64,000 bases of DNA from Eledone cirrhosa (taxonomy: Eukaryota): positions 223,076,001-223,140,000 of the forward strand of contig OZ024740.1 in NCBI GenBank assembly GCA_964016885.1. The letters run 5' to 3'. The first letter of the stretch is position 1. The number at the start of each line of letters is the position of its first letter. The notes beneath the pieces are model-generated. The model was not told where the DNA came from. It saw only the letters and a program-made list of their open reading frames with translations, and searched no databases. A program made the translations under genes and the position numbers. Shown here one piece after another: positions 1-64,000 of this stretch.

Positions 1-624
1 AATTCACACTCAATTTATTCTACTCACTTTTATTACAATCTCTGGTTTTTCCTCATACTCTGTGTCATTTGATAGCCTACTACGTCCTAATTATTATTTG
101 TATGACAGTAAATAAAATCACATTGAAAGTGTTACATGTGATTATGATAAAGAATGTCATTTACTATATAAATAGTAGATAAGTCCATCAAATAAAACAG
201 TATGTTGACAGTCTAGAAAAACATCAGATGATTGACACCAGCTGGTAATTATTTCTGAGCTTGAATTTTGTGCACAATTATTAACAAATGACAGTTTGTT
301 TCTAGACATCTTACTGATTCAAATGAAACAGAGGTCTTTTCAGCATCTAATACTTCCAACATTGATAAAATTAGCGATTGATTAACTAAATAGGTGGACA
401 ACTCATCTATAGACTAGTAAGATGACAAATATCGGACAGAGAATGTAGGTATCTGAGATTCTAAAGATGAATACTTTCAGCCATGCAATAAAATCAAAGG
501 TATACAAGTCATTATATATCGAGGTAAAATATAAGTACAATGTAAGTAGAACAATATCAAAAACAACAAAAACGTACAAAGTCAATATGATTGTGATGTG
601 GAGGAAAAGATAGGAAGATATTAT

Positions 625-827
625 GGCAGAATCAGCAGAAGGTTGGACACCATGCTTTGCAGTATAGAGTTATGGTCCTTTTACGTTCTGAATTCCAATC
701 CCGCCGAGATTGTTTTTGCCTTTCATCCTTATGGGGTCGATAAAATAAAGCATGCAGTTAATTTAATCGACTTTTCCCTCCCCACCCCCGAATCACTGGC
801 CTTGTGCCTATAGTAAAAATCATTATA
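625..827 (+). mobile_element. tRNA-derived SINE family 1 (MetaSINE-like central domain), diverged copy
   Basis: Box-A-like TGGCAGAATCAG, box-B-like GAATTCCAATCC, central GCCTTTCATCCTTATGGGGTCGATAAAATAAAG, tail GGCCTTGTGCCTATAGTAAAAATCATTAT; same family as >10 other copies in the window. Confidence 0.8.
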
Positions 828-1411
828 TGATTTCTAACTGGTTCCTCATCTGGTTATAAAACATAGTACTCTTATTTCTCAGTTTCAGGATGAATATCAA
901 TTGATATCCCACATAAGAAACAGATGTACTTGTAAATAAGTAACTCGCTTTCCTTTAATCCAAACACATATTATACTTCTTCATTTCTTTTCTAAACATA
1001 CACTTACACATTGTGTATACATTCATACACTCCACATCACCTACCACACCTACCCATACACTCACTCACATACATCCTCATCATCCATCTTCCATTCATA
1101 CACATCCCACTCAATGATGGTTGGCACACACAACCCAATACCATTATGGCGTACTCAGCCAACACACACATAACATTACTTACTATCATGATGTTGGCAC
1201 GGATTGGACAAGCGTTTTCAGGTGATATTCTATGACCTGATATCCTTCCTAAAAGCAACCTTGATTTGTTGTTGATTTTAAAAAAGTAAGGATCAGATTT
1301 TTACATATCTAATCACTGAGCTCAGGACCTCTGTTTTTGTGAATCATAAACCAGCAATATCAAAAGAAAATGATACACACACACATAATTGTATTTATTA
1401 TAAAGAAATAA

Positions 1412-1465
1412 CTTCTATATGCCTGATGATTTCATATGAATGAAGCAATTTTAGTCTTGTAGGAG
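1412..1465 (+). ncRNA. Degenerate minimal hammerhead ribozyme remnant (probable Penelope-like pLTR)
   Basis: CTTCTATA..CTGATGA-T-TTCA-TA-TGAA-T-GAAG..GTC-T-TGTAGGAG; stems I and II pair, GAAA changed to GAAG; AATAAA and a (TA)n tract follow. Confidence 0.35.
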
Positions 1466-1774
1466 GCCTTTCTATATAATAAATAGGCATATTCTCTACT
1501 AACGTATATATATTGTTCCTTATTTAACAGTGGTTATTTCCCAATCCCCTTCAGGATACCATTCTTATAAATATATATATATATGTATCTATTTCCTGAT
1601 TTCTTTGGATGTTCATATATATATAGTGATATTATGATTAAATATAGCTGAATATATGAGTGTTGAGCATGTGTGTGTCTATATGTATGTATGTGCGTAA
1701 ATATATACATAATTTCTCATATAGAATGGCGATATTTGTGTATTTGTGTATGATAAAAAGCTGTTAGATGATCG

Positions 1775-3082
1775 CTATAAGAAAGGTTCTTAGAGAAGAA
1801 TAAGGCACTATACTTAGCTTTGGTTGACCTAGAAAAGGCTTTTTATAGCATACCACGATCTGTCATCTGGTGGTCCCTAAGGAAACTAGGTGTAGAGGAA
1901 TGGCTTGTGAGTACAGTGCAGACTATGTACAGGGGTGCTGTCAGTAAAGTGAGGGTAGGAATGGAGTGTAGTGAGGAATTCAAGATACAAGTAGGAGTGC
2001 ATCAGAGTTCGGTCCTCAGCCCGCTCTTGTTCATTATAGTCCTCCAAGCCATAACAGAGGAGTTAAGACTGGCTGACCACGGGAACTTCTCTATGCTGAC
2101 GATCTGATACTTATAACCGAATCAGTAAAGGAGCTAGAGAATAAATTCTGGCTATGGAAACATCAGTTGGAATTAAGAGGACTGAGAGTGAACCTAGCTA
2201 AGACTAGAGAGTTGATAAGTAGAAAAGAGGACAAAACTCTGATTCCATCAGGGAAATGGCCATGTTCGGTATGTAGAAAAGGAGTTGGCATAAATTCTAT
2301 AAAATGTACACAATGCAGATCTTGGGTACACAAGAGATGTAGTTGAATAACAGACAAACTAACAGGTAGGGAAAACTACATATGCAGTAGATGTACAGGG
2401 AAATTTGACAGTAGAAGTCACAGTGATAGACACATTTTTTCAAATCCAGGTAGGATCTATAGAGGTGGTTGATAGCTTCTAATACCTAGGTGATCAGATT
2501 AACAAGGGAGGAGGGTGTTCCAAGATCATAGTATTTAGAATAAGGATGGGTTGGAAGAAGTTGAGGGAGCTGCTTCCTCTGTTGACAAAGAAGTGTTTCT
2601 TCCTATGAATGAAAGGCTGGTTATATGATGCCTGTGTGAGATACATGATGCTGCATGGTAGTGAGACATGGGCAGCAACTGCGGTGGATATGTGACGGCT
2701 GGAGAGAAATGAAGAAAGCATCTCCATTGGATGTGCAATGTCAATGTGCGTGAACGACCAAGCATAGATGAGATGAGAGAGAAATTTTGTATAAGAGAGA
2801 TAGGCTGTAGTGTGCAGGAGAGAAGACTGCATGGGTATGGGCATGTGATACGCATGGAGGATGACCACTGGGTAAAGAAGTACTAAGAAATCCCAATTGA
2901 AGGAAGACGCAGTAGAGGAACACCACAAAAAACATGGGCGGAGGTGGTGACAGCTGAGCTCAGATCGCTGAATCTCACGGAGGAGATGATAAAGGACCAT
3001 GTCGAATGGAGAGATGCTGTGCTGAACAGGACCCATCCCACCCTTGTAAGCAGGGAAAAGCAGACGTAAAATGATGATGATG
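1775..3082 (+). mobile_element. RTE-clade LINE family A, 5'-truncated and decayed (RT + PHD-like finger + C-terminus)
   Basis: ORF 1820-2107 VDLEKAF..VGVHQSSVLSPLLFIIVL; downstream YADD-equivalent and WPCSVCRKG..WVHKRCS; ends CCCTTGTAAGCAGGGAAAAGCAGACGTAAAA(TGA)n. Confidence 0.92.
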
Positions 3083-4782
3083 TATGTATATGTGTGTGTA
3101 TGTATATGTATGTAATGGGCTTTATATGGTTTCCATCTCCCAAATCTAGTTTCAAGGCATAGGTCAGGAACCTAAGGCAGTAAATAGTATACACCGAAAG
3201 TGTCACACAAGACTTGAACCAGAAATTGTGTTGTTTTAGAATGAACGTCTTAACCACACAGCCATTCTGAAGGTGCTTAGAGTAGCAGCCTAGAGCTATC
3301 ATGTTCAAATTCAACTAACATTCTGATACAATCTTTTGATATAATAACAAAGCAAAAGAATGTATAGAATTGCAGCCATGAATATAAATGCCTTCTACAC
3401 ACTTTACCACAATGTGTATAGAATAGTTTAATATTTGCATATATAAATCAAAGCATACATATTATGCACATAACCCATAACAGAAACATTTGATGCATTA
3501 TATTTTTAATATATAGTTACTCTAGGTCATTTCTGATGTTATGGGACATCACTTTTCATCAATATTATCAGGAGAAAATATCTCACAATGTCAAACATGA
3601 ACAACAGTCAAGATATATTTGTAAGACAAAGTGCTAAACACAGATAGGATATGATGGGAGTCAACGTCTTATAGCATTTAATAATAAGTTTCAGAAATGA
3701 GTGAAATATTCAAAACAGCCAAAATATTAGACAGTGTAAATGTTTAATACTAATGTCTTGTTAGTATAATTATTGTCATTATTCATGCATACAGACAATA
3801 ACATACATAAAATAACTGTATGCAAATTAAGCAATATACACACTGAGGTGCATATAGATAGAAACAAACAAACACATCAAACATAGGTAAATGTAAACTG
3901 AGAAATTTAAAATCCCACACATACTCAGAATGTAAGTGAAAGAAAGTTGAGCAGCTTACACACACATAGAAAGTAGATGAACGAAGGTTGAACAATTGAC
4001 ATACAATGTCCACATACATATATAAATACAAGTACACACACACAAACATATATATAATGTAGGTGAATGACTGGAATAGAACAATTTTATACACATACAG
4101 ACAAACATATGTATATATACACCTGCACACTCTGACAAATAAACAAAGGAAATCACAGTAGAAAAACACTTTGAATTATAAAATATAAAAAGATAATTCT
4201 CACTCAAAAGTAACTAAGAAAAGAGTAACGTTTATAATACGTTTCTTGCATAAACACGCATGCATACATTTTGTTTTATATTTGTGATTGCTAGTAAGAA
4301 ACACAATGACAGGAATTAAAAATCATAACTTCAGCTTATTGTGTAAAACAGGCTGCAAATTAGTAGAGGTGTAGGTCAAAATGTACTTATTTTGGCTCTC
4401 TGCACTGTGTCAAATACAACTATGCTCTTAGCTTTATTATTCTTCAGGGTAGATAAAATGAATTAGCAATATAGAACACCCGACCATAAGACTTGAGATA
4501 TTTTTTTAGGCTCTTTTATTTCTGAGTTTCAATAACACTGGCAGAAATTGGGTGATAGAACTAATTTGTTACTCAGCTTAACTCTCCACACTTTTGATTT
4601 AAATCAAACTTCTGGTTTGAGGATACCTAGTTCTTACTCTTTCTCCCTCTTACCAGTCATAAATGCGCTAAAAAGGGCCATTGGCAATGCTCTTCCCTAC
4701 CTGACTAAACAATAAAACTAGAAATTAAATGCAACTCTTTACAATGTAGGAAAAGCATCAATCACATTTTCTATTTATCTAA

Positions 4783-6785: not shown

Positions 6786-7418
6786 ATTATTTTATTAATT
6801 TTTTATTGGTGGATTGGCAGTATCGGTGGAGGGTCGGACGCCATGCTTTCCAGCATAGTTACGTCCCTTTACGATCTGAGTTCAAATCCCACTGAGGTTG
6901 ACTTTGCCTTTCATCCTTATGGGGTCGATAAAATAAAGTACCAGTAATGCACTGGGTAATTGCTGGCCTTGTGCCTAAAGTAGAAACAATTATTTTATTA
7001 ATTTTTTAAGGGCGGTGGATTGGCAGTATCGGTAGAGGGTCGGACGCCATGCTTTCCAGCATAGTTACGTCCCTGTACGATCTGAGTTCAAATCCCACTG
7101 AGGTTGACTTTGCCTTTCATCCTTACGGGGTCGATAAAATAAAGTACCAGTAATGCACTGGGTAATTGCTGGCCTTGTGCCTAAAGTAGAAACAATTATT
7201 TTATTAATTTTTTAAGGGCGGTGGATTGGCAGTATCGGTAGAGGGTCGGACGCCATGCTTTCCAGCATAGTTACGTCCCTTTACGATCTGAGTTCAAATC
7301 CCACCGAGGTCGACTTTGCCTTTCATCCTTACCGGGTCGATAAAATAAAGTACCAGTAATGCACTGGATAATTGCTGGCCTTGTGCCTAACGTAGAAACA
7401 ATTATTTTATTAATTTTT
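6786..7418 (+). repeat. Head-to-tail trimer of SINE family 1, 206-bp period
   Basis: Three near-identical copies (6808-6987, 7010-7193, 7216-7399), each bounded by ATTATTTTATTAATTTTT (4 copies). Confidence 0.95.
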
Positions 7419-14188: not shown

Positions 14189-14230
<42 letters not shown>

Positions 14231-16519: not shown

Positions 16520-17478
16520 AGTGGAACTCTATTCACATGCAAAGTGCACTGTGTAGGCTTCCTTGAGAAGAGTGTCCCAGTTTTCACAGCACTGATTTTC
16601 CTTACTGCCATGCAGCAATTGGTATCAAATCTATTAAGTGCAAGTCGGAGATCACCTTCTGTTAAGTTACGTAACACCATGTCGTCTGTAAATTCCACTT
16701 GCCTGATTTTACACCCACCAGTTGGGACACCACTTCTAACCTGGCTGATCATGTCAATTCTGTTCATGTAAATAATGAACAGGAAAGATGACAGTACTCA
16801 TCCTTGATGGAGTCCAATCGCCACATTGAATGGTTTCGATTTAGTACTATTTATCCAAACACAAATACTTGGGTATTCATGTAGAGACATCAAGGCAACA
16901 AGAAGCTGACCATCAATCCTATACTCCTGCACAACCTTCCAGATCTTGAGAAATGTGGTCATATGCCTTTTTGAGGTCTACAAAACAAGAATATACCTCT
17001 TGGCAATACTCCCATGATTTCTCACAGACCTGCCACAGTTTGAACATTTGGTTTGCAAAAATCACACTGTTCATCAGCTAGCTTGGATTCGACAATTGCT
17101 TGCATCTCTTTGCCAGACATTTAGCATAAACTTTACCAAAGAGGCTTAACATGGAGTTCCCTCTGTAATTGAAACAATCTCTCTTGTCTGCCTTTTTGAA
17201 AATTGGTATTGTCATTCTCGATTGCTATTGCTTAGGTGCCATTCAAGAGAGCCAGGCCACCTGGCACACATGAGTCAGCCAGAGAATACCTTCTCTATTC
17301 AAGGTTTTAACATCTCCAGCAGGACACCCAGGGACCGAACCTGAAAAAGATGGTTTGTCTCACTTGGGAATCCAGCCAGATCAGTTGGAGATGGTTGCTT
17401 CTGACGTGACCTGTTGGAAGGAGTGTTTGAGGACCCTGCCCCCACGACTCTCTCAGGACTAAGTGGGTGAAGAAGAAT
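16520..17478. mobile_element. Rex3/Expander-like RTE LINE with 5' inversion
   Basis: RT on minus strand ~17330->16520 (IPIFKK.DKRDCFNYRG, FVDLKKAYD, GLHQG, FTDD); C-terminus and tail on plus strand 17335-17478 (LGIQPDQLEMVASD..LPPRLSQD*, GAAGAAGAA); (TA)n at both ends. Confidence 0.85.
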
Positions 17479-17647
17479 ATATATATATATATATATATTC
17501 TTCTTCACCCACTTACTCCTTCACTCTTTCTACTGCTTTCACCCGTAACAGGATCTTCAGAAGATCCCATTAAGGGCGAAAGCAGCAATTCTGTGCTCAA
17601 AATTTAATTTGTTATTTTAATATATATATATATGAGTATATATGTAT

Positions 17648-24500: not shown

Positions 24501-25792
24501 AGTACCTAAGTTTAAGTAATTCAAAGCAAATAAAACCAATATACATTTGAAGGAATGAAGCATCTTTTTCTTTAAAATGCAATGAAGACATATATAAATA
24601 CAATCACATTAAGTGCTATATAATATATTTGTTATTCTGATGTTTTGAAAACTGGTTTCAATTACAATTGGTATTTTGTGCAATGCAATCTATATTTATT
24701 TATTTTATTTCATGCAATTATACTTCAAAGAGCACCAATAACTAAAAAAAGTCCTGGATATGGTGGAATGTTAGAATCTTACATTTATTCTGTAAGAATC
24801 ATCAGTAAAAATTCTATAGTATTAGTATAGTTAATACAAAGCATTGTGAGATATGTAATAGAAGAGCATTAAGTTTCAAAAAGCCAACACGATGAGGCAG
24901 AAATATATAAACGGCAAATTATGACTAATAAAACAGAAACTAATGTTTTACCTAGTATATTTCACCTAGGCCAGTTAAGGAAGAGCACATGAATCGTTTG
25001 TTTCTGTTTTGAACCATTTCTTCTTCACATTTGAAAAAAGGGTATTAGCCCTGAAATATTATGTTGAAATATATTGGGTAAAACATTTTATTTTATTGTC
25101 ATCCTTTGCCTTTTACATATTTCTACTCCATTATACCGGCTTTTTGAAATTTATCAGTCTTTTATTTTATATTATTGTTTTAAAACCTATTACAAATATT
25201 CAGGGTCATCATATGTCTTGAGAGACATGAATTTGCACTGGGAAAGTTATTCACTAAGACACAGGCGTGGGCAGGTTTCATTGTAGAAAACCAGCTGTTA
25301 CCCATGCAAGCAAGTCTCCCCTCTCTATGCTACCAATGGTGTTGATGGGAAAGGCAAGCAAAGACCAATACAACATATCAACAGTGATGTCACAGATAAA
25401 CTGAGAAAGCAAAGAGTAAAAAAAGATACTACAAAGTATTATGTCTGATACATTAACCACACCACCAATCCACCACACTGGACTAGTATTTTATTTTAAC
25501 CAAACTGAAAGTGTGAAACGTAAAGTTTAGCTTATCAAAAGTAAGAAGGCCATGAATTTAACTAACTTTCAGGATCATTTGATAAAACTCTCATATCTAT
25601 TGTTATTAAATAAATCAGTATATATATATATATTATCGCTCTAGATGGCTGAATAAAATAAATGTAATCTGAGTTTTTTTTAATATTAATAATAATATTT
25701 GATTCATTTGCAATTATACAAACACCCTCATTTTTAAAGCCATGTCAGTAGAATGAGCCCCTCATTCTTGCTCTTGTGTTGGCTTGTTAACA

Positions 25793-25838
25793 GAACTGCA
25801 GACACTAATGTTTCTGGGTATTACCCTTCATCATCAGC
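25793..25838 (-). ncRNA. Hammerhead motif, left arm (5' strand of helix I lost at the inversion junction)
   Basis: Minus strand ..TGATGA-A-GGGTA-A-TACCC-A-GAAA-CATTAGT-GTC-TGCAGTTC; GUC triplet. Confidence 0.6.
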
Positions 25839-25934
25839 CTAATTTGCATATTAGCAGATGGCTGATCAGTCAAATCTGCATATTAGCAGATCCACTGATA
25901 AGCTAGATTTGCATATCAGCAAACAGGCTAGTCT

Positions 25935-25984
25935 GAACTGCACTGATGAAGAGTAATACCCAGAAACATTAGTATCTGCAGTTC
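25935..25984 (+). ncRNA. Minimal type I hammerhead motif, right arm
   Basis: GAACTGCA-CTGATGA-AGAGTAATACCCA-GAAA-CATTAGT-ATC-TGCAGTTC; perfect 8-bp helix I, intact core. Confidence 0.75.
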
Positions 25985-26112
25985 TGTTTACATGCCTACA
26001 CAAGAGCAAGAACGAGGGGCTCATTCTACTGACATTGCTTTAAAAATGAGGCTGTTTGCATAATTGCAAATGAATCAAATATAATTTTTAATATTTGAAA
26101 AACTCAGATTAC

Positions 26113-26145
<33 letters not shown>

Positions 26146-26780: not shown

Positions 26781-28727
26781 TGATTACGCTGGATTAGAAG
26801 GTTGATAAAAAGATTCAATTTTAACTAAATGTGTTAAAATTTCAACACAAATATCCACTAAATAATTGTTATTGTCAGAATTATTTAAAAATAGATCCAA
26901 CACCAATATATTTAATGCTTAACATCCTGTATTAGATGATTCCACTTGCATCAGCAAGATTATCTGAACAGTATGAAATGGTAGCAATAATTATTCATTT
27001 AATGGAAGGGAGGAAGTGTTTAATGTAAGAGAGAAAATCCTAATTGCTTCTGTCATTCTGTTTTATTTTCATGTTGAAAAATATCCATGTGTCATTGAGT
27101 TTTATAAAACATTTTCCAGACTGTTCACTGATATTTTTCTTTACAAAATGGTTGCTGAACATTATATCAACATCGATGAATATTGATGATATAATCGTTG
27201 AATTAAGAGCTGATAAGATTATTTTGCTTTTGGAGATGTTTGTTACTAATGACATTTAATTTATTATTAACATTTTTCTTTCCTGTCGTCTTTGAGTGAA
27301 ACTATTTTTAAAACTATTATGTAATTAATTATAACCACACATACACAATATTTTTTTAATGTATAAATGACTACATCACATTAAAAAATCAAACAAAAAA
27401 CAAAGCCTTTTTGCTGTTTTGCAAATTTTCTAAACAGTCTGCTTCTAAGTAAAGATGTTATAAACATTTCAATAAACAAATCTTTTATAAGGTTGTATAA
27501 CCCCAGGTTAGCCTCAAACCAGCTTTAATTGAGCTGCTGTGGCTAATTTGTTTACTGTGGTCGTTTTCTTCAGGAATATATAATAAAGTGTAATTTAAGG
27601 TGGATTTTGCCTTCTATTTTGATCAACAGTATAAACAGTATAAACGCAGGTAGACTGGCTTTTTTGCAGTACTTATTCCGGCACTTCCACTCTAAATTCA
27701 AATCATACCAAGATCAACTTTGCTTTTCCTCATTTCAGGGTCGATAAATGACATAGCATTTCAGAGTAGTGGTTTGGTATAATTGTTAGAGTGCTATATG
27801 AGATGCTTTGTAGTATTTATTCTGGCTCTTTGCAATATGAGTACAAATCCTTCTGTGACATACTTGGCAGTTTACAATGTACAGTTTAACACCACTACCT
27901 GGCTATTGGGTGCCTTCAACCCAATTCACTCTCTTACATGTATTCAGTTACGTTTATCCTTCCCTCACTCCCACCAGTCTCAGAGGCTCTGAAGAAGGTT
28001 ATGTGAACGATTCAACCCTTACTGATTAAACAATAAAACCCCAAAACATTAAAATTTTCTTTTAACCATTCTTAAACGACCATTAAAGAATATATAAAAT
28101 ATTACAAAGTTTATAGTTGTCATATTAATAGATAAAAAATACAAAGAGAATACATTATTATGAAATGAGACATTAACATATGAAATAAACCTGAGTGATA
28201 CTTGTTATGAAATTTAAACATTAATATATTAAAAGAATAAGCTTGTTCTAAGATTTAAACATTAATATAGTAAGTAAATAATGTCAATATTTCTTTTATT
28301 TAAAACAAATAGGTGTGCCTATTCTAAGATTTAAGTGTTAATATACAATGGAAACAATGTTGATACTTATTCTAAAATATAAGATTGTATGTAAGTGCAA
28401 AGGCATGGAAATATAATTTGGTGCCCACTGGAAGTGAGAGATCCCTGGTCCTTGTTCTGACACCATTCTAGGAGAAAGAAAACTCTGATGTAAATCCTGT
28501 GACTTGATTGCAGACTATAATGTTGCCTTGTTCTTTTTCAGAGAGTGGGATCAGTCCATTGCAAAGTTTTTTTTTCTTCACTTAAAAATCCTTGAAGCAC
28601 TGACTGTAAAGTCTGTGACAAGACTAAAAAGTTATGTTTGCAAAACCCATGTATGAGAAAGGGATCAAATGATGGCAATTCTTGAAACGTATGTGTATAT
28701 ATATATATAACAAAATGTGTATATATA

Positions 28728-28806
28728 TAACAAAATAAGATGCTGAGGTTATATAGATCATTTAATCATTATATGATCTATGTAACCTCAGCATCTTATT
28801 GTGTTA
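28728..28806. repeat. ~80-bp palindrome beside (TA)n
   Basis: TAACAAAATAAGATGCTGAGGTTATATAGATCAT / ATGATCTATGTAACCTCAGCATCTTATTGTGTTA with an 11-nt loop. Confidence 0.85.
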
Positions 28807-29134
28807 TTTTTATAAAAATTCTCCATCGTAACTAATTACTACGATTGTTGAGAGCTTTCTCCTGCTTGCTCCTGTTTTTAATAGCTCTCATTCTTTTCTA
28901 ACCTGTTCTGATAATCTTTTCCTGCCAGATTAATGATGACAGACCACCAGTTAACTCTGTCGGTGAAAAGGCATGCTGTAATTGTTGCCTTACATGCAGA
29001 TCATAGAGATTTAGTGATTGCACATTTCCTGAAAGTTGCAGTAGTCAAATTTAAAATGGCAATACTATCAGAACACCCAAATTCATAGAAGAGATGTAGA
29101 AAATTATCAATAATAACACCAGAAAGTCAATTAG

Positions 29135-29915: not shown

Positions 29916-30566
29916 ATATATATAAACAAATATACAATCAATATATGTAGCTAAGTGATTGGACTTTGAAGTGTTGGAAATAGTTTAAATGCCTGGGTTG
30001 TTTGGTATTCGATTCCTCATGGGGGCTGATGGCATCTTCTTTTTATGTCTTTTGAGGGTACCCTCCCCCCGCCCCCCGTTTTATAAGTTATTTTGTTGCA
30101 TCTCTGAACATAAGCACATCAGCCTATACATTTATTTATTTATATATATGTGTGTGTAATGTGCGCTGGTAATATGGTAAAATGCACCGAGATGTAAAAC
30201 AGTTGTCATTAGGAAGGACATCCAGCAGCAGCAGAAATCATGCAAGAACTGGAAGGCATGCAAGCAAGAAGTAGCTCCTCGCAAGATTGTTCATATGTTC
30301 CATATTTGGCATGGTTTCTATGGATGACATGTGACAAAATGTGTACTTTTTTTTCAATATACTTTTTTTTCTTTCACTAAATGTCCCCCCACCCCTTTTT
30401 TTTTTGCATCTACCTTCTATTTCATTTAAGTGTTAAGCTTATATATCATGAATATGTGTTGTTGTCTGCTACTGATGTTTTCTCATGTTCTTTTACTCTA
30501 TACAGACACACAAACACACACACAAATATAAATTGTGTAGAGTTAGTTATATTGGTAGAGTTAGTT

Positions 30567-30760
30567 ATATTTGAAAAAAAGAAAAGAATCACTTTGCTTG
30601 TGGTTGGTATTCTATAATAATTTAATTTCATATATTCTTTTCGATTTTACAACTTTGCTATATACATCTACACACAAAAAATTGTAAAATTATAAAGTTA
30701 AATAATTATAGAATACCAACTACAAGTGAAGTCATTATTTTCCTTTAAAAAAGAAAATAT
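30567..30760. repeat. ~190-bp fold-back made of the terminus of the element at 41562-43410
   Basis: Imperfect inverted arms; AACTACAAGTGAAGTCATT.TTTTCCTTT matches 43372-43405. Confidence 0.7.
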
Positions 30761-36887: not shown

Positions 36888-36942
<55 letters not shown>

Positions 36943-36970
36943 GTGGTAACACAACAGTTAGTTCACCATA

Positions 36971-37010
36971 CCGAGAACAATTGTTTCACCTTAGCGGATC
37001 ATCAGCTCGG
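36971..37010 (-). ncRNA. Minimal type I hammerhead ribozyme motif (left pLTR)
   Basis: CCGAG-CTGATGA-TCC-GCTAA-GGT-GAAA-CAATTG-TT-CTCGG; palindromic ACAATTGT helix III, GUU triplet. Confidence 0.8.
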
Positions 37011-37172
37011 AATGGGCATGGTTATAGGAACAGGAAGGACAACCTTACGTACGCGCATGCGCAGAAACCCAGTAACTTCACACAGGCAATACTAGACTGC
37101 GTGCGAGAGATGTAAGCGAGATAACTGCGAAAGTCCGAAAAGTTCTTAGGTTGAAAATAAAATTACAAAAAA

Positions 37173-37714
37173 TCAGTCCGGAGCCTTGTAGTTATGCAAT
37201 AGGTGTTTGCCGACGTGTAGACAACGTGTGAAAAATTCATTTCTCGTGTTTAGGCAATCACTATTACGTAATCTCTTTAGAATAGTTATTCGTTCGTCAA
37301 TACATAAGCCACACGTCGTATTTTCCCTTGCGTATGGCTTGGACTTAGTGATGGCTTTCCATTGAATGGAGTAGTGTATACTTGAGTCCTTGAGGGACCA
37401 TACGTGGCTCACGAGTTTCGTGGATGAACGTCTGTCCGGGTACCTGAAGGTAGACGGGTGGTTCAGGAAACGTTCCTTAAATCGGCCCTCCGCCATGCCC
37501 ACATAGGATTTGACCTTCTGTGGTTCGTTTGGTCGGTTGGAAGTGACCACAGCTTCAGAAATTACAGCTGGTGTGTTGCATTGCTTTTGAAGGGGGCAAG
37601 CTTCAGGCTTACGGCACGAGCACCCTGGTGGGGTGTTGCTCCTAGGGCTGCTGGTGATGTTGGCCTTCATGTTCTTAGCGCATGAGTATCCTAGTTTATC
37701 TTTGTGTAGGTTAA
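37173..37714 (-). pseudogene. Penelope-like linker + GIY-YIG endonuclease C-terminus (left arm)
   Basis: KLGYSCAKNMK..CSCRKPEACPL..C..VISEAVV..SYVGMAEGRFKERFLNH..STKL..VWSLK..CGLCIDE..LNTRNEF..RCLH; the N-terminal part of ORF 37173-37907 is just antisense of the right arm. Confidence 0.85.
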
Positions 37715-38162
37715 CCACCAGGGTGCTCTTGCCGTAAGCCCCCTTCAACAGCAATGTAACACACCAGCTGTAATTTATGAAGCTGTGGTTACTTCCAACC
37801 GACCAAACGAACCACAGGATGTCAAATCCCATGTGGGCATGGCGGAGGGCCGATTTAAGGAACGTTTCTTGAACCACCAGTCTACCTTCAGGTACCCGGA
37901 CAGACATTCATCCACGAAACTCGCGAGCCACGTATGGTCCCTCAAGGACTCAAGTATAGACTACTCCATTCAATGGAAAGCCATCACTAAGTCCAAGCCA
38001 TACGCAAGGGGAAATCCGACGTGTGGCTTATGTATTGACGAACGAATAACTATTCTAAAGAGATTACGCAATAGTGATTGCCTAAACACGAGAATTGAAT
38101 TTTTCACACGTTGTCCACACATCGCCAAACACCTATTGCATAACTACAAGGCTCCGGACTGA
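37715..38162 (+). pseudogene. Penelope-like GIY-YIG endonuclease C-terminus (right arm)
   Basis: VIYEAVV..SHVGMAEGRFKERFLNHQSTF..CGLCIDE..RCPH; 11-bp deletion near 37740 relative to the left arm. Confidence 0.85.
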
Positions 38163-38311
38163 TTCTTTGTAATTTTATTTTCAACCTAAGAACTTTTCGG
38201 ACTTTCGCAGTTATCTCCCTTACACTTCTCGCACGCAGTCTAGTATTACCTGCGTGAATTGACCGGGTTTCTGCGCATGCGCGTTCTTACGGTTGTTCTT
38301 CCTGTTCCATT

Positions 38312-38351
38312 CCGAGCTGAGGATCCGCTAAGGTGAAACAATTGTTCTCGG
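38312..38351 (+). ncRNA. Minimal type I hammerhead ribozyme motif (right pLTR)
   Basis: CCGAG-CTGAGGA-TCC-GCTAA-GGT-GAAA-CAATTG-TT-CTCGG; helix I extends to CCATTCCGAG/CTCGGTATGG. Confidence 0.8.
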
Positions 38352-38484
38352 TATGGTGAACTAACTGTTGTGTAACCACTTCTACCTAACTCGTCCCATG
38401 GACTGAGTGCTCTACCACTACGGATATTACTTCCAGTGTTCCACCACTATATATATATATATATATCAGTAGAGAGAGAGATTT

Positions 38485-41561: not shown

Positions 41562-43410
41562 TATAATATTATAAATTGGTAATCTAGTAAGTTCTTTGTT
41601 AACTTCGGTGGGAAGAATTTTAAAGTTTCCTGCTTAACTTTCCTGAAGAACTTTCTCGCATTCGTTGATGGCGATTATCAAACTGAGATCAGGTTGTGTT
41701 GTGATATGTGACTCTATATATAAGAGAGATTTGGATGTGTCTGAGGTGTGGGGTGCAGTGTTAATGAGTGTGGGAGTGAAGGGGTGTTGATGAAGATTTA
41801 AAGGAATTAAAGCCTACGCACACACACGCACACACACACGCACACACACACACACACACACATATATATACATACACAGAAATGGTGAAAGTTGACAACA
41901 AGAAGATAATGAGATAGCAGTGTTTAAGAAAGGGGCTGTAAAAGTTCCCTGCTGCTGGTTCCATTTCAGTAATTAACCTTTGATGAATATAACTGTTTCT
42001 ACTTTTGGCACAAGGCCAGCAATTATCACAGTACATTGCTGGTACTTTATTTTATCGACCCCGTAAGGATGAAAGGCAAAGTTTACCTCGGCGGGATTGA
42101 ACTCAGTCCATAAAGGGCCATAACTCTTTGCTGCATGGCATCAGACCCTCTACCGATACTGCCAATCCACCATCTTTTGATGAATATAATGTCAGAATGT
42201 TTTTCAAATTCGTTTCTTATAGCTGAATCAACTCTCTTAAATTTATACAGAATACATTCAACAATTTAAAGATGAAAGTGGTACGAACCACTACTGAACA
42301 CAAAAACAATGATATTCCATCTTCAAATAACGGGATTCTCTCTCCTCTCTCTTTTCTTTAAAAAATCACATATTGAAAAAGAAAAATATCCAAATAGAAG
42401 TTGAAGACACCCACCCTTTCAAACATTCGATCGTTGAAGAGAAGAAAAACCCTCAGAGGTACACTAACAGTTCATTAATTTCCCCTTCTCCACTCCAATG
42501 TATATGTGAACTTAAATACTTGAGTAGATGTGTGTATAGATGTATTTGTATGTGTACAGGTATGTGTATACATGTGTATATGTATGTGTGTATATGTGTG
42601 TGTATATATGAATATATGTGTGTGCGTGTGTGTATGTGTGTGTGTATATATGCAATATATATGGTCTGAAAGTACATTTATATATAGGGAAGTGAATATG
42701 TTAGCTAGCACCCCCCCCCCCCACGCTTCCCCTCCCAAACCAATATCACCAACATACATTTCTGACAAATATTCCAAAACTATCCTTATTCTTCTCTTTG
42801 CTGTCATCCCATTCTTATCAAAAGAGATGTATCTTACACTTCATTAACCCCACCACCACCACCAGACAAGCACCTAAATTCATCTTTAAATTGTTGAGGT
42901 ATTCTTTATAAATTTAAGAGAGTTGATTCAGCTGTAAGAAATGAATTTGAAAAACATACTGCCATTATATTCATCAAAGGTCATTTATTGAAATGGAACC
43001 AGCAGCAGGGGACTTTTACAGCCCCTTTCTTAAACACTCCTATCCCATTAACTTCTTGTTGTCAACTTTCACTATTTTGTGTGTATATATGTGTGTGCAT
43101 GTGTGTGTGTATGCTTTAATTCCCTTAAATCTTCATCAACACTCCTTCACTCCCACACTCATTAACACCACACCCCACACCTCAGACACATCCAAATCTC
43201 TTTTGTATATAGAGTCACACATCACAACACAACCTGATCTCAGTTTGAGAAAGTTCTCCAGGAAAGTTAACCAGGAATCTTTAAAAATCTTCCCACCGAA
43301 GTTAACAAAGAACTTACTAGATCTACCAACTCATAATATTATAATATTATAAAATTAAATCAATTTGTTTAGAACTACAAGTGAAGTCATTCTTTTCCTT
43401 TTTATTCAAA
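41562..43410. mobile_element. Large diverged inverted-repeat element, Penelope-like by architecture
   Basis: Arms 41562-42276 (interrupted by a SINE) and 42879-43343 are reverse complements; ~600-bp spacer; the right arm extends to (TA)n at ~43410. Confidence 0.7.
41993..42173 (-). mobile_element. SINE family 1 inserted in the left arm, with TSD
   Basis: TTTGATGAATATAA on both sides; a single copy in the opposite arm (TTATATTCATCAAAG ~42965-42979). Confidence 0.93.
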
Positions 43411-54022: not shown

Positions 54023-55180
54023 AAATATACTCTACATTAATACACAATAAAACAACTCACACAACATATACTCTACATTAATACACAATAAAACAACACA
54101 ACTCACACAACATATACTGTACATTAATACACAATAAAACAACACAACTCACATAACATATACTCTACATTAATACACAATAAAACAACACAACTCACAT
54201 AACATATACTGTACATTAATACACAATAAAACAACACAACTAACATAACATATACTCTACATTAATACACAATAAAACAACACAACTCACATAACATATA
54301 CTCTAGATTAATACACAATAAAACAACACAACTCACATAACATATACTCTACATTAATACACAATAAAACAACACAACTCACATAACATATACTGTACAA
54401 GATTAATACACAATAAAATAACACAACTCACATAACATATACTCTACATTAATACATAATAAAACAACACAACTCACATAACATATACTCTACATTAATA
54501 CACAATAAAACAACACAACTCACATAACATATACTTACATTAATACACAATAAAACAACACAACTCACATAACATATACTGTACATTAATACACACTAAA
54601 ACAACACAACTCACATAACATATACTCTACATTAATACACAATAAAACAACACAACTCACATAACACATACTGTACAAGATTAATACACAATAAAACAAC
54701 ACAACTCACATAACATATACTGTACATTAATACACAATAAAACAACAAAACTTACATAACATATACTCTACATTAATACACAATAAAACAACACAACTCA
54801 CATAACATATACTCTACATTAATACACAATAAAACAACACAACTCACATAACATATACTGTACAAGATTAATACACAATAAAACAACACAACTCACATAA
54901 CATATACTCTACATTAATACACAATAAAACAACACAACTGACATAACATATACTCTACATTAATACACAATAAAACAACACAACTGACATAACATATACT
55001 GTACAAGATTAATACACAATAAAACAACACAACTCACATAACATATACTCTACATTAATACACAATAAAACAACACAACTGACATAACATATACTCTACA
55101 TTAATACACAATAAAACAACACAACTCACATAACATATACTCTACATTAATACACAATGAAATAACATAACTCATATTAC
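54023..55180. repeat. 46-bp minisatellite, ~24-25 copies
   Basis: Unit ACATATACTCTACATTAATACACAATAAAACAACACAACTCACATA; 49-bp GTACAAGATT variant at 54395, 54673, 54860, 55001. Confidence 0.97.
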
Positions 55181-55394
55181 AGAAACCAAACATAACAGAA
55201 TAAACACTAAAATAATACAAGAAACTACATGTAAACTACATAACAAAACAAGACTGATGCAAGGCACTAACAGGAGAAGTCTTTACACCTGCAACCATCA
55301 CAAAAATAAGAACACAATTCCATGCACACCTCAGAAGCACAGGGATGCATCAAATGATGCAGTAGAAAACTACCTGAAATTACTGAAGAAATCA

Positions 55395-57895: not shown

Positions 57896-58307
57896 GCTGG
57901 TACTCAATCGGTTTCAACCAAGTAGTCAGAGCAGTCTTAAAATACAACAAAGGCACATGCTATGAATTAAGAATCAAACCCACAAACTTATTATTGGGAC
58001 TCCAAACCCCTAACCACTAAGACTTAGGAACTCACTGTTTACCTGTAATCTCCTTCAATTATTTTTACATACATGCTTCTGTGTGTGAGTACATATAAAG
58101 GGGTAATAGAGAGATGTTCATCACAATTCATCTAGAATAAACAGTCTCCATAGACATTTCACTCCCATGTAAACTTTTACACTTAATTCACTCACATATA
58201 CATACTTACATTCAACTCAATCAAATATACCCTTGACTGACTCACATACAGATATACTATTTCTCTCCTCAGTTTTACTCTATATCACCTATGTATATAT
58301 ATATAAA

Positions 58308-60920
58308 TATGGAAGCTAAAGGACCCCACAGCCAGAAATAAATTTCAAAGCATATTACTTGATGCTTTCGACAGTAAGGAAGAGCATTTAGAGTCGTACA
58401 ATATAGAGGAACAGTGGGAATTCCTGAAATCAAACCTGCTGATGACGGCAGACGAAGTCTGTGGCCGGAGCAGGCCTATAGGCAGGAGGAGAGTAACATG
58501 GTGGTGGAACAGTAAGGTGGAGGAGTCGATTAAGGCCAAAAAGCAGGCTTGGAAAGTATGGCGGGATGGGGGAAGTAGAGAAGACTATCAAGTGGCCAGG
58601 AGGGAAGCTAGGAGACAAGTGTACTTCGCAAGAAGGGAAGCAGAGGAAAGAAAGTTCAAGCATGTTCTACAACGCGAGGAGCAAAAACGTGAGGTGTTCA
58701 GGATTGCTAGGCAATGTGTCAAGGAAAACCGTGATATTGTCGGGGAGAAGTGTGTACTAAATGATGATGGCGTACTTGCCATCACTGACGCTGATAAGAA
58801 GGTAGCTTGGAAGTGTCACTACGAAAGGCTACTAAATGAGTAGAATAAATGAGAGAAGGATAGTCTGCCCCAAATCGATCCAATAGAGGGAGTGTTAGTT
58901 GAAGGTAGTATAATGAGTAAGGCAATCAAAGATGTGAAGACGGGTAAGGCGGCTGGGCCTTCGGAAATAGTTGCTGAGATGCTGAAAGCCTCTGGAACGG
59001 TGGGACACACCATGGTCACCTGGATAGTAAACCAAGTCATACAGAATGGGGTTGTTCTGAAGGACTGGCATAGCAGCATCATCATTAACTGTTACAAGGG
59101 TAAAGGAGACGCCCTAGATAGGAGTAACTATAGAGGCATTAAATTAATCGACCAGGTCATGAAGGTCACGGAAAAAGTAATAGTGCAACTAATCAGAGAG
59201 AGAATTGATCTAGATGAAATGCAGTTCGGGTTTGTGTCAGGCAAAAGTGCCACAGACGCTCTTTTCATTGTACGACAACTACAGGAGAAGTACCTAGCTA
59301 AAAGTAAACCCCTATACTTAGCTTTTGTCGACTTGGAGAAAGCCTTCGACAGAGTTCCCCGTTCCATTATCTGGTGGGCTCTTAGAAAACTAGGTGTTGA
59401 TGAATGGCTTGTGAGAGCTATACGAGCCATGTATAAAGAAACAGTCAGCAAGGTTAGAATTAACAACGAATATAGTGAAGAGTTTAGCGTAAAAGTTGGT
59501 GTTCATCAGGGCTCTGTTCTTAGCCCCCTACTATTTATTATTGCCCTACAGGCTATAACAGTGGAGTTCAAAACAGGCTGCCCATGGGAACTCCGATACG
59601 CAGATGATCTAACGCTCATAGCTGAATCGATGGCTGAACTAGAGAAGAAATTCCAAACATGGAAGCATGGCCTAGAATCAAAAGACCTTAAAATTAACCT
59701 GGCTAAGACTAAAGTTCTAGTTTGTAGGAAAGAAAATAAGGCGCCGGTCCCTTCCGGGAAATGGCCATGCTCAGTGTGTAGGAAAGGCGTAGGTAGAAAC
59801 TCCATTTTATATCCCAAATGCAAAGTATGGGTGCATAAAAGATGTAGTGGGATCACAGGTAAGCTAACTAAGAACATTGATTTTACATGTGGCCGGTTCT
59901 CTGGTGCAATAAGTAGCAGCAAGTGCCCACAAAATACTAGCTCTTTCAATTGCGCAGAGGGTTCTATAGAAATAGTGGACAGCTTCCGTTACCTGGGTGA
60001 CAAAATCAGCAGTGGGGGAGAGTGCTCTGAAAGTACAGTAGCTAGACTCAGAACTGGATGGAAAAAGTTCAGAGAGCTTATACCACTATTAGCCGCTAAA
60101 GGGTTCTCCCTAAAAATGAAAGGCAGGCTGTATGATGCCTGCATACGAACAGCAATGTTGCATGGCAGTGAGACCTGGGCATTGTGTGCAGAGGATATAC
60201 CCAGACTAGAGAGGAACGAAGCTTGCATGCTCCGCTGGATGTGTAATAGTAATATACGCGAATGGCAAAACATAAACGAACTAAGGGAAAAATTAGAAAT
60301 AAGAGGGATCAGATGTTGTTTAGTCGAGAGAAGACTACGTTGATGCGCATGAAAGACGACAGCTGTATAAAAAAGTGCAGGGCAATAAAGATAGACGGTA
60401 GCCACAGAGTAGGCAGACCCAGAAAAATCTGGGACGACCTGATAAATTCCGACCTCACACACACTTACACCTCTCCAAGACAATGTCACTGGACCGAGAT
60501 CTTTGGCGGTACTCAGTAATAGAGAAGACCCGCCTTACCTGAATACAAAGTAAAACCTACTACAGTCAGTAGGCATCTCTAACAAAACACTCCCAGTCCC
60601 ACCACCCCCACCACACCTCCCCTTTCAATGTAAAGTTACGTTGGTGCCACAACATCCAGGCCAAAACAAATGAGATCGTGTAGGTGTCACGACAAAAAAA
60701 CACACAGTCCACGCTGTAATGTGGCCGTGTAGGCAACATGGTAAAAACCTCCCAGTCCCACACTGTAAATGTGGTTGGTGTTAGGAAGGGCATCCAGCTG
60801 TAGAAAACCCACCAGACAGTCCTATACGAGCAAGACAACCACTCTTACCTCAAGTGGGAAAACTCCCGTCCAAACCCATGCAAGCGTGGAACATGGACGT
60901 TAAACGATGATGATGATGAT
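58308..60920 (+). mobile_element. RTE LINE family B, longest copy (no APE endonuclease; 5'-truncated)
   Basis: One reading frame from ~58310 to 60343 with in-frame stops at 58841 and 58850; 3' UTR ends CCATGCAAGCGTGG..(GAT)n; ATATATAAAT on both flanks (possible TSD). Confidence 0.96.
58892..60343 (+). CDS. RTE reverse transcriptase with inserted PHD-like finger (disrupted copy)
   Basis: NYRGIKL, QFGF, FVDLEKAFDRV, GVHQGSVLSPLLF, YADD, NLAKTK, FRYLG, LHGSETW. Confidence 0.92.
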   Translation: MLVEGSIMSKAIKDVKTGKAAGPSEIVAEMLKASGTVGHTMVTWIVNQVIQNGVVLKDWHSSIIINCYKGKGDALDRSNYRGIKLIDQVMKVTEKVIVQLIRERIDLDEMQFGFVSGKSATDALFIVRQLQEKYLAKSKPLYLAFVDLEKAFDRVPRSIIWWALRKLGVDEWLVRAIRAMYKETVSKVRINNEYSEEFSVKVGVHQGSVLSPLLFIIALQAITVEFKTGCPWELRYADDLTLIAESMAELEKKFQTWKHGLESKDLKINLAKTKVLVCRKENKAPVPSGKWPCSVCRKGVGRNSILYPKCKVWVHKRCSGITGKLTKNIDFTCGRFSGAISSSKCPQNTSSFNCAEGSIEIVDSFRYLGDKISSGGECSESTVARLRTGWKKFRELIPLLAAKGFSLKMKGRLYDACIRTAMLHGSETWALCAEDIPRLERNEACMLRWMCNSNIREWQNINELREKLEIRGIRCCLVERRLR

Positions 60921-61081
60921 GATATATAAATGGAATAGAATGAAACGAAATTTCATTTCTCACTCTTAGTACGGCAGTTACTTAAATGTAAGTATGTATA
61001 TATGTATACGTACATACATATATATATACAGACGTACAGTTGTATGTATATATATACATACATGCACACATATATATATAT

Positions 61082-61288: not shown

Positions 61289-61639
61289 TATATATATATA
61301 TATATATTCCTAATATTTCTTTCACTTCTTACATAGTCCGTTTTTTTGGCTAGATACTATGATATTAAACATCTTGCCAAGCCCTTTAAACTTACCTTAA
61401 TAGGAGCAATTTAGTTAATAATTAAATGAAAATGTTTTTCTTTGTGTGTTTTAATGATTTTAATTATTGCATATCAAACTTTCTAAGTATGTCGTACAGA
61501 ACGTTTAATAGGATGAATGTTATCCTCTGTCAATTTAAATCACTGATTTGAAACGGTGAAGCTAAAATATTCTATCTACCTAATATTTCTTGGGAATTGA
61601 TATGACATCATTGTTATGCAATATCAATGAATATAAATT

Positions 61640-62780
61640 TAGTAGAACAGCCTCTTTCTGACTAGAATCCAATTTAAAATATTAATGTAAAGATTAGATT
61701 TGAAGTGACTGTTAATCATTTCTTGAAATTCTCTAAATGTTGAAGGTGTCCATGAACCAAACCATTGTAGTAATAGGATTTTTAAGAAGAAACAAATGTT
61801 ATTATACAACAGGACCTTGGGTTTAATTCTACTTGATGATAGCAAATATTAAGATTTAGGTTTGAAGAAATGCATGCTCCATTCAAATTTTTCAGTGCCT
61901 CCTCATATGGACAACTATGGTTGCTCTGCATAGGTTCAGCAACAAATAGATACTCATCTTTCTTTGCTTCCCCCTCAATCAACAATGAAAGTCACATTCT
62001 AGAGACATCAAATGTTTAACCCTATAATACTAAGTTACTTGTAACTGCCTTTGGTTCTATGATACAAAGCTGTCTATTTTGAACTATTTATATCTATCAA
62101 TAAAACCTCCACTGCAATTTCATATCAGCACGCATATTAAATTATGCTCCAAGCACCAGCTCAATAATTATAAATTTGGTTATTTTACTAAGTCCTTCCA
62201 ATTAATTTCAAAATTATTTGAAAATCACAGGCAGTCTTCCATTAGAAATATGGTAACAAAAGATTGATATTAGAGATATCCCTGTTCAATAAACATTTTT
62301 TATATTTTATAACATATAAATGAAACTGTTCCATGGGTTATATCACCAATTTTATATCATGGATGATTAATAATTGTAACATAAAGTCATATAATTTACC
62401 AATACCTTGTAATACCTCAAGGAATTTTTTTTGTATTTAAATCATTTTTTACTGTTGATAGAGTATTGATGTATTTTATATTATTAAATGAAATGAAGCT
62501 GCATTACACATCAATAAGCAGTTACCAGCCATAGATTTGATAACTATGTAATGAATGAAAAAAATTAAACTAGTTCTGGCTGTGACTCAAATGACCAGTT
62601 AAGCCATAGGTGAATATGTCAATGCTGCATGTTTGGATAAATTGTTTCAGGTTTAAATCCCTTGGTTCTTGTGAATGTTGCTCCAGAATCAATAAAGTAT
62701 GATGTAGATATTCCAACAGCCTTTATTTGAAATATAAATTCACCACACTTCTTGAAGCAAAAAGGAATATTTTGTTTTGT
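61640..62780 (-). pseudogene. Ancient Ty3/Gypsy pol remnant (protease + RT)
   Basis: FIDSGAT (aspartic protease) at ~62690; LNGACISSNLNLNICYHQVELNPRS..ITF and EFQEMI (RT) at ~61900-61700; protease-RT order. Confidence 0.6.
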
Positions 62781-62899
62781 GGTGGTGATATGATAAAATA
62801 AACCCAGTACAAACACACAAACACTCATACATAAATGCATCTCATGCACATTATTAAGTGGCCAACAATTGGAGACAACACAGGCATAGAAGAGCTTTT

Positions 62900-63562
62900 T
62901 AGTCTTGTCAGGAACTTGACAACCTCTCTAGTTTTGGTATCCTAATCGGCGTTTCCCTGAGGCTCGGCCTCCGGATCTGCCAGCCACACCAATGTCACTG
63001 CGGTTCCACCGTGGACTCTTTTGGCCTCCACCTGCTTTCCTGTCGCAACAGTGCCAACCGCATTCCACACCATGCTGCCCTCAACGAGGTCATTAAGCAT
63101 GGCTTGGACACTGCAGGCTTCCCTTCCCAGCTTGAGCCGGTGGGGCTAGATCGAGGGGACAGCAAAAGGCCAGATAGCATGACCATCTTCCCATTCCGTG
63201 GTGGCAAACCCCTCGTCTGGCATGCCAATTGCACCAACACTTTCTGCAGCCACAACTTGGTGCAGTCTGTGACTGAACCAGGTTCTGCGGCACGTTGGGC
63301 TCACGGGGTCAAACTCCACAAATACCGGTCGCTCTCTGACAGGTTTGCAGTCGTACTCCTGGCAGTGGAGACTTCTGGTGTCCTCGGCCCCAGGGCTACC
63401 TCCTTACTCACCACCATAAGCGCTGAGCTGGCCAGCCGCAGGTGTGAGCCCCATGAGTTGGAGTGGCTTTTCCAGCGCGTCTCCCTTGCCGCCCTCCTGG
63501 GAAATGCCTTCTCCATTCTGTCCGCCGGGGTTGTGGGTGGGCCCCATCACGTACCGTTCTAG
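62900..63562 (+). mobile_element. CRE-clade non-LTR retrotransposon 3' fragment (CCHC finger + RLE)
   Basis: LRLGLRICQPHQCHCG..LHLLSC, LEPVGLDRGDSKRPD, KLHKY, AVETSG.LG, LFQRVSLA..GNA; GC-rich island. Confidence 0.85.
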
Positions 63563-64000
63563 TTGTTGTAGAAGAAACAGGAAGACAACAACTGGAAAGT
63601 TTGATTTTCTACTTTACCATTTAATGTGAGAAGTAGTAGTACTAGTAGCTTTATTAGAGATATGGAATAAAGAAACAAATGAATTAATATATAAATAAAA
63701 GAGGTTGTTGTTATGAAGAGCATTTAATCATGGAAACTATGTAGAAGAATCTATTCACTTAGGAGGCTGCACCTCCAAATGAGAACTAATACACACTAAT
63801 CAATCGGTCCAACCCATGCCTGCATATAAAGCAGATATCAAATGATGATGACAGATTTTGCTTTTCCAGATAACTTACTACAATTGCTCTTCACATCTAC
63901 TGGATGTGTAATGAATGACTCAGCACATATAAGCCAAGAAAATAAATTGGGTATATGGGGGATCAGATGTAATGAAGAAGAGAGAAGTCTGTACTGATTT

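What the first reader, a model, noticed from the sequence alone, without database searches (positions are those of the whole stretch)
1..64000. Size series of ribozyme-bearing fold-back elements at (TA)n tracts
Seen: inverted-repeat structures beside (TA)n at 41562-43410, 36939-38445, 25634-26118, 30567-30760 and 28728-28806. The three larger ones have an extra extension on one arm only. Two have hammerhead motifs in both arms and one encodes a GIY-YIG domain. Known: Penelope-like elements form inverted pseudo-LTR arrangements, have a terminal extension and carry minimal hammerheads. Inference: Penelope machinery here routinely makes short non-coding hairpins that mimic MITEs, possibly a non-autonomous, ribozyme-processed hairpin retro-element class.
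Basis: partly seen in the sequence, partly recalled or inferred. Interest (0 to 1): 0.8.

Follow-up and report, generated by a model that had tools for sequence, protein, structure and literature searches.

The report
Truncated, inverted Penelope retroelement insertions
The five hairpins are real, but they are cut-short, back-to-back ends of four families of Penelope-type jumping genes, likely formed anew at each insertion rather than a new mobile class; one family is a non-coding ribozyme repeat that likely borrows the Penelope machinery.

Summary
All five inverted repeats exist. They are not one size series of a propagating hairpin. They come from four repeat families, each with 269-4,381 exact end-motif matches in this 3.0-Gb genome. 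36939 and 28728 are 3' ends of Hydra-type PLEs; 41562 is a Neptune-type PLE end, and 30567 shares its terminus. Each family has two fixed 3' ends (with or without a tail) at (TA)n, variable 5' truncation, and often a head-to-head inverted copy. This anatomy is published (Craig 2021; Cervera 2014).

Junctions differ between loci: none of 32 tail/no-tail B hairpins shares an exact junction (one segmental duplicate set aside). Truncations rarely sit at the hammerhead cut site.

Two things remain of interest. First, the tail lies on exactly one arm in 32 of 35 and 29 of 32 hairpins, and arms are often not nested, which favours priming from both ends of one break. Second, 25634 belongs to a 441-bp non-coding tandem hammerhead unit that carries the full PLE insertion fingerprint. 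That is insertion-level evidence that PLEs move an animal non-LTR retrozyme; expression and cleavage are untested.

The parts
36939..37714 (-). B inverted arm: 5'-truncated Hydra-type PLE end without tail; reaches 83 nt further into the ORF than its partner
   Evidence: reference -747..+28
37715..38447 (+). B sense arm: endonuclease remnant (to 38162), 3' UTR, hammerhead, short end near 38384, 64-nt tail, then (TA)n
38312..38351 (+). minimal type I hammerhead motif of B, palindromic stem III
36971..37010 (-). mirror hammerhead motif of B
41562..42276 (-). A inverted arm (Neptune-type PLE 3' UTR), outer end missing, interrupted by a SINE
41989..42172 (.). later SINE-like repeat inserted in A's left arm (about 20 related copies in the window)
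42281..43410 (+). A sense copy: last codons of the RT/GIY-YIG ORF, about 1.1 kb 3' UTR, short end at (TA)n
25634..25933 (-). C sense arm of the 441-bp non-coding hammerhead unit; tail at 25634-25658; an internal deletion of about 78 nt removes the 5' strand of stem I
25935..26118 (+). C inverted partner arm without tail; hammerhead with two substitutions at 25935-25986
30532..30640 (-). D arm with partial, duplicated tail; A-related terminus
30663..30760 (+). D arm without tail; 75-79% identical to A's end
28720..28765 (-). E arm without tail: last ~45 nt of a Hydra-type PLE with a ~1.5-kb 3' UTR
28766..28880 (+). E arm with tail (about 28813-28880)

Best explanation
The five hairpins are 5'-truncated, head-to-head copies of the 3' ends of four Penelope-type families with a different junction at each sampled locus, likely made when a Penelope RT/GIY-YIG protein cuts a (TA)n tract and primes cDNA from both ends of the break. 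Shown: fixed double 3' ends, (TA)n flanks, variable 5' ends, locus-specific junctions, tail on one arm only, coding parents for A, B and E, and no coding parent found for C. Inferred (about 0.6): one broken end primes at the tail start site and the other at the short start site, matching the two internal RT start sites and two-strand extension shown in vitro for an anole PLE; the two cDNAs are then joined by end repair. Inferred (about 0.75): the 441-bp hammerhead unit C is a non-autonomous passenger copied from multimeric or circular RNA by a PLE protein in trans. Ribozyme cleavage is likely not what sets hairpin size.
For: Fixed ends: all 30 top B copies end at the same base before TA; two ends, +29 and +93, in the pattern sample. 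A ends at +41 and +70; C at +34 and +61-70. Orientation: 17 divergent and 0 convergent close pairs among the first 100 listed B matches (counted by eye). Junctions: no exact match among 32 tail/no-tail B hairpins; the one identical pair, L267/L268, is 97% identical over 1.4 kb of flank. Arms of one hairpin differ by 5.2% (59 of 1140) against 6.9-9.8% between loci, and share subfamily letters at 11 of 11 and 8 of 8 loci. Tail on exactly one arm: 32 of 35 B (P 2e-7) and 29 of 32 complete C hairpins (P 1e-6), while about half of solo copies are tailed (18 of 32 B, read; 20 of 39 C). In 7 of 32 B hairpins, including the window's, the tail-less arm reaches at least 5 nt further 5', so neither arm contains the other. 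Parents: A family RVT_1 E 4e-9 and GIY-YIG E 5e-7; B RT and endonuclease frames; E endonuclease frame 36% identical to B's, E 1e-10. C: 441-bp unit, 37% GC, longest sense ATG frame 21 aa; 18 of 30 long copies run on into the previous unit's tail, and the other 12 stop near the unit start. Literature: PMC8557442, PMC11167929, PMC4209133, PMC3846280.
Against: B junction pairs agree within 3 nt more often than shuffled pairs (9 against 2.9, P 0.008); the clustered junctions differ letter by letter, so I read this as a hotspot, but it is the strongest point for shared origin. C arms end within 2 nt of the cut site in 7 of 37 nearby ends (P 0.03, uncorrected). Non-nested arms could also come from trimming after a single fold-back. 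No hammerhead core was found in A, though PMC8557442 calls HHRs universal in C-terminal EN+ PLEs. Only the first 100 of 2,742 C matches, 30 of 553 and 41 top DNA-search loci were examined, so a rare coding parent of C is not excluded. B and E proteins have no Pfam hit, and a search for longer homologues found none.
Confidence: 0.85

Rival explanations
1. Same PLE origin, but each hairpin comes from one cDNA that folds back or switches template and copies itself, ending at the TA of the short end by annealing to the far target end.
For: It explains the tail on one arm only and the shared subfamily letters. In 25 of 32 B hairpins the tailed arm is the longer one or within 4 nt. Several junctions overlap by 1-10 nt.
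Against: In 7 of 32 B hairpins and many C hairpins (for example L310, L312, L321) the tail-less arm reaches further 5', by up to 83 nt in the window's B, which self-copying cannot give without extra trimming. PAc extends both strands in vitro (PMC11167929).
Confidence: 0.3
2. Family C is not non-autonomous but the pLTR or 3' region of a coding PLE that was not sampled.
For: PLE partial tandems also give head-to-tail repeats of the end (PMC8557442). E and A have 1.1-1.5-kb non-coding 3' regions, so short samples can miss an ORF.
Against: Upstream of the unit start lies the previous unit's tail (18 of 30); arms run to -606 and -747 through unit sequence. Of 161 C loci, the 13 inspected ones with PLE-like frames nearby show no ORF continuing in sense into C's 5' end; two further hit loci (L312/313, L326) were judged only from coordinates and flanks as neighbours in the same TA tract.
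Confidence: 0.15
3. One reading: hairpin RNAs, cut by their ribozymes, are retrotransposed as a unit.
For: Short B arms crowd at -25 to -80 around the hammerhead (60 of 104 arms); near-shared junctions are in excess; several tiny E hairpins centre near the cut site (but these were selected by a hairpin query).
Against: No exact junction is shared except in a segmental duplicate. The two near-shared C pairs among 50 differ in junction letters or polarity. Arms resemble their partner more than same-side arms elsewhere. E's 5' ends peak at -170 to -177 (12 of 57 loci), far from the cut site at -17. A and D show no ribozyme.
Confidence: 0.04
4. MITEs of DNA transposons, or assembly fold-back artefacts.
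For: Terminal inverted repeats at TA sites resemble Tc1/mariner-type MITEs (recalled).
Against: Length and centre vary per locus, about half of the loci have one arm only, ends are asymmetric, and arms run into RT/endonuclease ORFs. Arms differ by 6-9% or more, unlike read chimeras.
Confidence: 0.01

Closest known systems
Hydra clade of C-terminal EN+ Penelope-like elements (Craig et al. 2021, PMC8557442; passages and section 11 read)
   Same: [quoted passage not shown]
   Different: E has a ~1.5-kb 3' UTR and a hammerhead with a long stem II. No tree was built.
Neptune/Nematis-type PLEs (same paper)
   Same: A's parent has RT, a CX4CxxC linker and GIY-YIG with the CCHH residues.
   Different: No hammerhead core found near its end; Neptune versus Nematis not resolved.
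Inverted pLTR plus tail structure of PLE insertions (PMC8557442; PMC3846280, parts 1-3 of 5; PMC4209133, parts 1-2 of 4; PMC11167929, parts 1-2 of 4)
   Same: Inverted 5'-truncated partner, tail at one end, microsatellite bias. Opposite-strand hammerhead pairs 100-700 bp apart were already ascribed to truncated PLEs. The tail equals the stretch between two RT start sites.
   Different: B's and E's tails (64 and ~90 nt) exceed the usual 30-40 bp. I saw no published count of tail asymmetry or arm nesting in the text read.
Animal non-LTR retrozymes (Cervera and de la Pena 2020, PMC7229834, passages; Li et al. 2026, 10.64898/2026.07.22.740005, part 1 of 5, passages and Discussion)
   Same: C is a non-coding, low-GC tandem unit with one type I hammerhead per unit and a strongly self-pairing predicted circle.
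   Different: 441 bp against ~170-400 nt; mostly dispersed, truncated and inverted copies of up to about two units, not long arrays; carries PLE tails. Those papers infer PLE mobilisation from co-occurrence and phylogeny; the preprint's main text has no use of 'tail' or 'target site'.
Non-autonomous Chlamys elements such as MRC1 (PMC8557442, passage)
   Same: Non-autonomous PLE passengers with pLTRs and head-to-tail copies.
   Different: Algal, and resemble an autonomous family at the 3' end; no such parent was found for C.

Membership tests
EN+ PLE (families A/D, B, E) | RT and C-terminal GIY-YIG ORF upstream of the terminus | tested here: met
   A: Pfam RVT_1 and GIY-YIG. B: RT and endonuclease frames, no Pfam hit, Atlas leads only. 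E: endonuclease frame only. D: by similarity to A's end only.
EN+ PLE (families A/D, B, E) | variable 5' truncation with fixed 3' end and inverted partner | tested here: met
EN+ PLE (families A/D, B, E) | optional 3' tail, often on one end | tested here: met
EN+ PLE (families A/D, B, E) | hammerhead in the terminal repeat | tested here: inconclusive
   core pattern in 41 of 54 B and 37 of 53 E copies spanning it (segmental duplicates not removed); no recurring core in 30 A copies
Hydra clade (B, E) | CxCX5C linker, DKT, no CCHH, (TA)n target | tested here: met
   read from translations; DKT seen in B only, E's RT not recovered
Hydra clade (B, E) / Neptune (A) | placement in the RT phylogeny | not tested
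   no reference proteins fetched, no tree built
Neptune/Nematis (A) | CX2-5CxxC linker and CCHH endonuclease | tested here: met
   translations
Non-LTR retrozyme (C) | non-coding head-to-tail unit with one type I hammerhead, GC under 45% | tested here: met
   the strict core pattern matched 14 of 27 spanning copies, with more under the relaxed scan; stem II is closed by an A-A mismatch
Non-LTR retrozyme (C) | monomer of about 170-400 nt | tested here: inconclusive
   441 bp, about 10% above the quoted range
Non-LTR retrozyme (C) | expressed as circular RNA and self-cleaving | not testable with these tools
   needs RNA data and a cleavage assay
Autonomous PLE (C) | own RT/endonuclease ORF | tested here: not met
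   (161 loci of several thousand copies)
MITE / propagating hairpin | fixed length, fixed symmetric TIRs, shared internal junction | tested here: not met
MITE / propagating hairpin | 2-9 bp target-site duplication | tested here: inconclusive
   both ends lie in (TA)n, so a duplication cannot be read

The most novel reading that the evidence does not exclude
Family C is an animal non-LTR retrozyme whose thousands of copies carry the PLE-specific insertion fingerprint (two start sites, one-sided tail, inverted partner, TA target). That would be insertion-level evidence that PLE proteins retrotranspose retrozymes in trans. Every PLE hairpin would record coupled priming of both ends of one break at two different start sites; locus L127, where a B-type arm is joined head-to-head to a C arm, may be one event that used both RNAs.
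Probability: 0.5. Interest if true: 0.6.

Novelty: new member of a known kind. Interest (0 to 1): 0.38.

Why it matters
The hairpins are a known by-product of Penelope insertion, and a trap for MITE annotation in (TA)n-rich genomes. The useful residue is mechanistic. How PLEs make inverted repeats is called open in PMC8557442, and who moves animal retrozymes is only proposed in PMC7229834 and the 2026 preprint. A genome with thousands of short insertions makes both countable: the one-sided tail and non-nested arms constrain the insertion model, and family C gives a defined RNA to test in a PLE reaction.

Tried and rejected
Rfam scan of the window found no hammerhead family, only AT-repeat noise. 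Pfam gave nothing for B's frames, and a search for longer homologues was blank (weak evidence). Single-strand folding of hammerhead stretches was uninformative (the L185 stretch there was misplaced and is not used). A cut-site pile-up suggested by tiny E hairpins vanished in the pattern sample. An antisense frame in C is not kept (stops in 117 of 127 hits). A possible partner element upstream of two C copies (L309, L384) proved to be a same-sense neighbour cut at the junction; such flank deletions also weaken L127, the only mixed head-to-head junction against 195 same-family ones. Other mixed hits were microsatellite matches. Earlier-findings look-ups were empty. Paper searches found no report of a propagating PLE hairpin class or of PLE tails on retrozymes; the library lacks most subscription papers.
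Full report
OBSERVATION. I label the loci A (41562), B (36939), C (25634), D (30567) and E (28728). All five inverted repeats are real, with arms 73-94% alike, too diverged for read chimeras. B holds a minimal type I hammerhead motif in each arm (2 hits; shuffles 0.04) and an endonuclease remnant. C's two motifs are damaged: one has two substitutions, the other lost stem I by deletion. E keeps only the 3' strand of stem I; A and D show none. Tails exist in B, C, D and E; A's asymmetry instead comes from a missing outer end beside a SINE, and another SINE interrupts its left arm.

FAMILIES. The window lies in a 3.0-Gb genome. Exact end motifs occur 4,381 (B), 2,742 (C), 1,920 (A/D) and 269 (E) times, with 0 for reversed controls. 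Long B copies carry RT and endonuclease frames with DKT and a CxCX5C linker, the marks of the Hydra clade. E is the last 45 nt of another element with that linker and a 1.5-kb 3' UTR (36% identical to B's endonuclease). A is the end of an element with Pfam RVT_1 and GIY-YIG domains and a CX4CxxC linker, Neptune or Nematis type; D is 75-79% identical to A's end. Clade names rest on motifs, not a tree. C is different: a 441-bp unit, 37% GC, one hammerhead per unit, in head-to-tail partial tandems. In 18 of 30 long copies the sequence upstream of the unit start is the previous unit's tail; the other 12 stop near the start. No inspected locus shows an ORF running in sense into C (161 loci searched).

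SAMPLES. For B I examined the first 30 pattern matches (27 loci), all 14 remaining close pairs among the first 100 matches, 26 further stretches chosen at single matches, and the window copy. The 36 hairpins in 68 loci therefore overstate the rate; the unselected figure is 14 of 27, and a two-armed locus has two chances to be listed. For C all of the first 100 matches were examined: 50 hairpins and 39 solos (tails classed by script, so a few may be wrong). For E, 57 loci were tallied after dropping 7 duplicates, and some entries are microsatellite artefacts.

Every family has two fixed 3' ends at (TA)n and variable 5' ends. Among 32 tail/no-tail B hairpins (L268 dropped as a segmental duplicate of L267; 3 two-tail hairpins left out) no junction pair is identical. 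Nine pairs agree within 3 nt against 2.9 expected (P 0.008), but their letters differ. Arms of one hairpin differ by 5.2% against 6.9-9.8% between loci and share subfamily letters. C has two near-shared pairs among 50, differing in letters or polarity; no permutation was run for C. So hairpins arise locally and do not spread as units.

RIBOZYME ROLE. In B, 60 of 104 arms begin at -25 to -80, around the 5' half of the hammerhead, but none within 2 nt of the cut site at -8. In E the peak is at -170 to -177 (12 of 57), far from the cut at -17. C shows a weak excess at the cut (7 of 37, P 0.03). PMC11167929 found cleavage unnecessary for insertion in vitro. I infer the peaks mark RNA 5' ends or RT stall sites; this is untested.

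MECHANISM. The tail sits on exactly one arm in 32 of 35 B and 29 of 32 complete C hairpins, while about half of solos are tailed. In 7 of 32 B hairpins the tail-less arm reaches further 5' (83 nt in the window's B), so neither arm contains the other. PMC11167929 shows that an anole PLE cuts and extends both strands of AT-rich DNA and starts at two internal sites whose spacing is the tail. The simplest fit is priming from both ends of one break, one end at each start site, then joining of the two cDNAs (inferred, about 0.6). Self-copying of one cDNA with later trimming remains possible. One locus, L127, joins a B-type arm head-to-head to a C arm, against 195 same-family junctions; flank deletions are common at 5' junctions, so this is a lead only.

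COMPARISON. Inverted truncated partners, one-sided tails and microsatellite bias are described in PMC8557442 (passages, section 11), PMC3846280 (parts 1-3 of 5) and PMC8969392 (passages). Opposite-strand hammerhead pairs 100-700 bp apart are in PMC4209133 (parts 1-2 of 4). A, B, D and E are therefore ordinary. C works like a non-LTR retrozyme (PMC7229834, passages): non-coding, low GC, tandem, and predicted to self-pair strongly as a circle (-147 against -93 +/- 6 kcal/mol in 60 shuffles; internal repeats contribute). It is slightly long, and circular RNA and cleavage are untested, so membership is likely, not shown. The 2026 preprint (part 1, passages, Discussion) argues PLE mobilisation from phylogeny and distribution; C adds an insertion fingerprint. 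My searches found no such report, but the library is partial and supplements were not seen.

VERDICT. Real features, mostly known biology; the proposed propagating hairpin class is not supported. Interest 0.38, carried by family C and the tail-asymmetry counts.

Noticed in passing
L125:1229-1668 (family C unit): The unit holds two perfect ATGCAAAT octamers within 32-bp internal repeats that are expanded in L124. An snRNA-type promoter with an octamer is recalled for newt satellite 2; my search did not confirm it.
   Followed up: partly
L127:506-975: A B-type tailed arm is joined head-to-head, with about 5 unassigned bases, to a tailed C arm; the only mixed junction against 195 same-family ones.
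   Followed up: partly
flanks of the 464 fetched loci: A relaxed scan found many further hammerhead-like families, by eye more than a dozen, mostly beside TA tracts; the genome appears very rich in such elements.
   Followed up: no
window 17766-17735 (minus): A further hammerhead motif, of a family recurring in other loci, ending at the TA tract near 17620-17650.
   Followed up: partly
window 17455-17520: Near-perfect 66-bp palindrome centred on (TA)n (97%), likely an inverted duplication of flanking DNA; a similar one occurs in L303.
   Followed up: no
   Followed up: partly
window 6786-7418 and 54025-55181: Three tandem copies of a 206-bp SINE-like unit, and a 46-bp satellite of 25 copies.
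   Followed up: no
window 18296-18826, 62903-63562, 58307-60343: Frames resembling restriction-like endonuclease and RTE-type RT domains of non-LTR elements (names recalled; Pfam gave no hit for the first two).
   Followed up: no
L154-L165 (G000:C1:217.3-217.7 Mb): A segment carrying an E-family hairpin is repeated about nine times at roughly 50-kb spacing.
   Followed up: no
E family, position -170 to -177: Sharp 5'-end peak in 12 of 57 loci, a candidate transcription start of the terminal repeat.
   Followed up: partly
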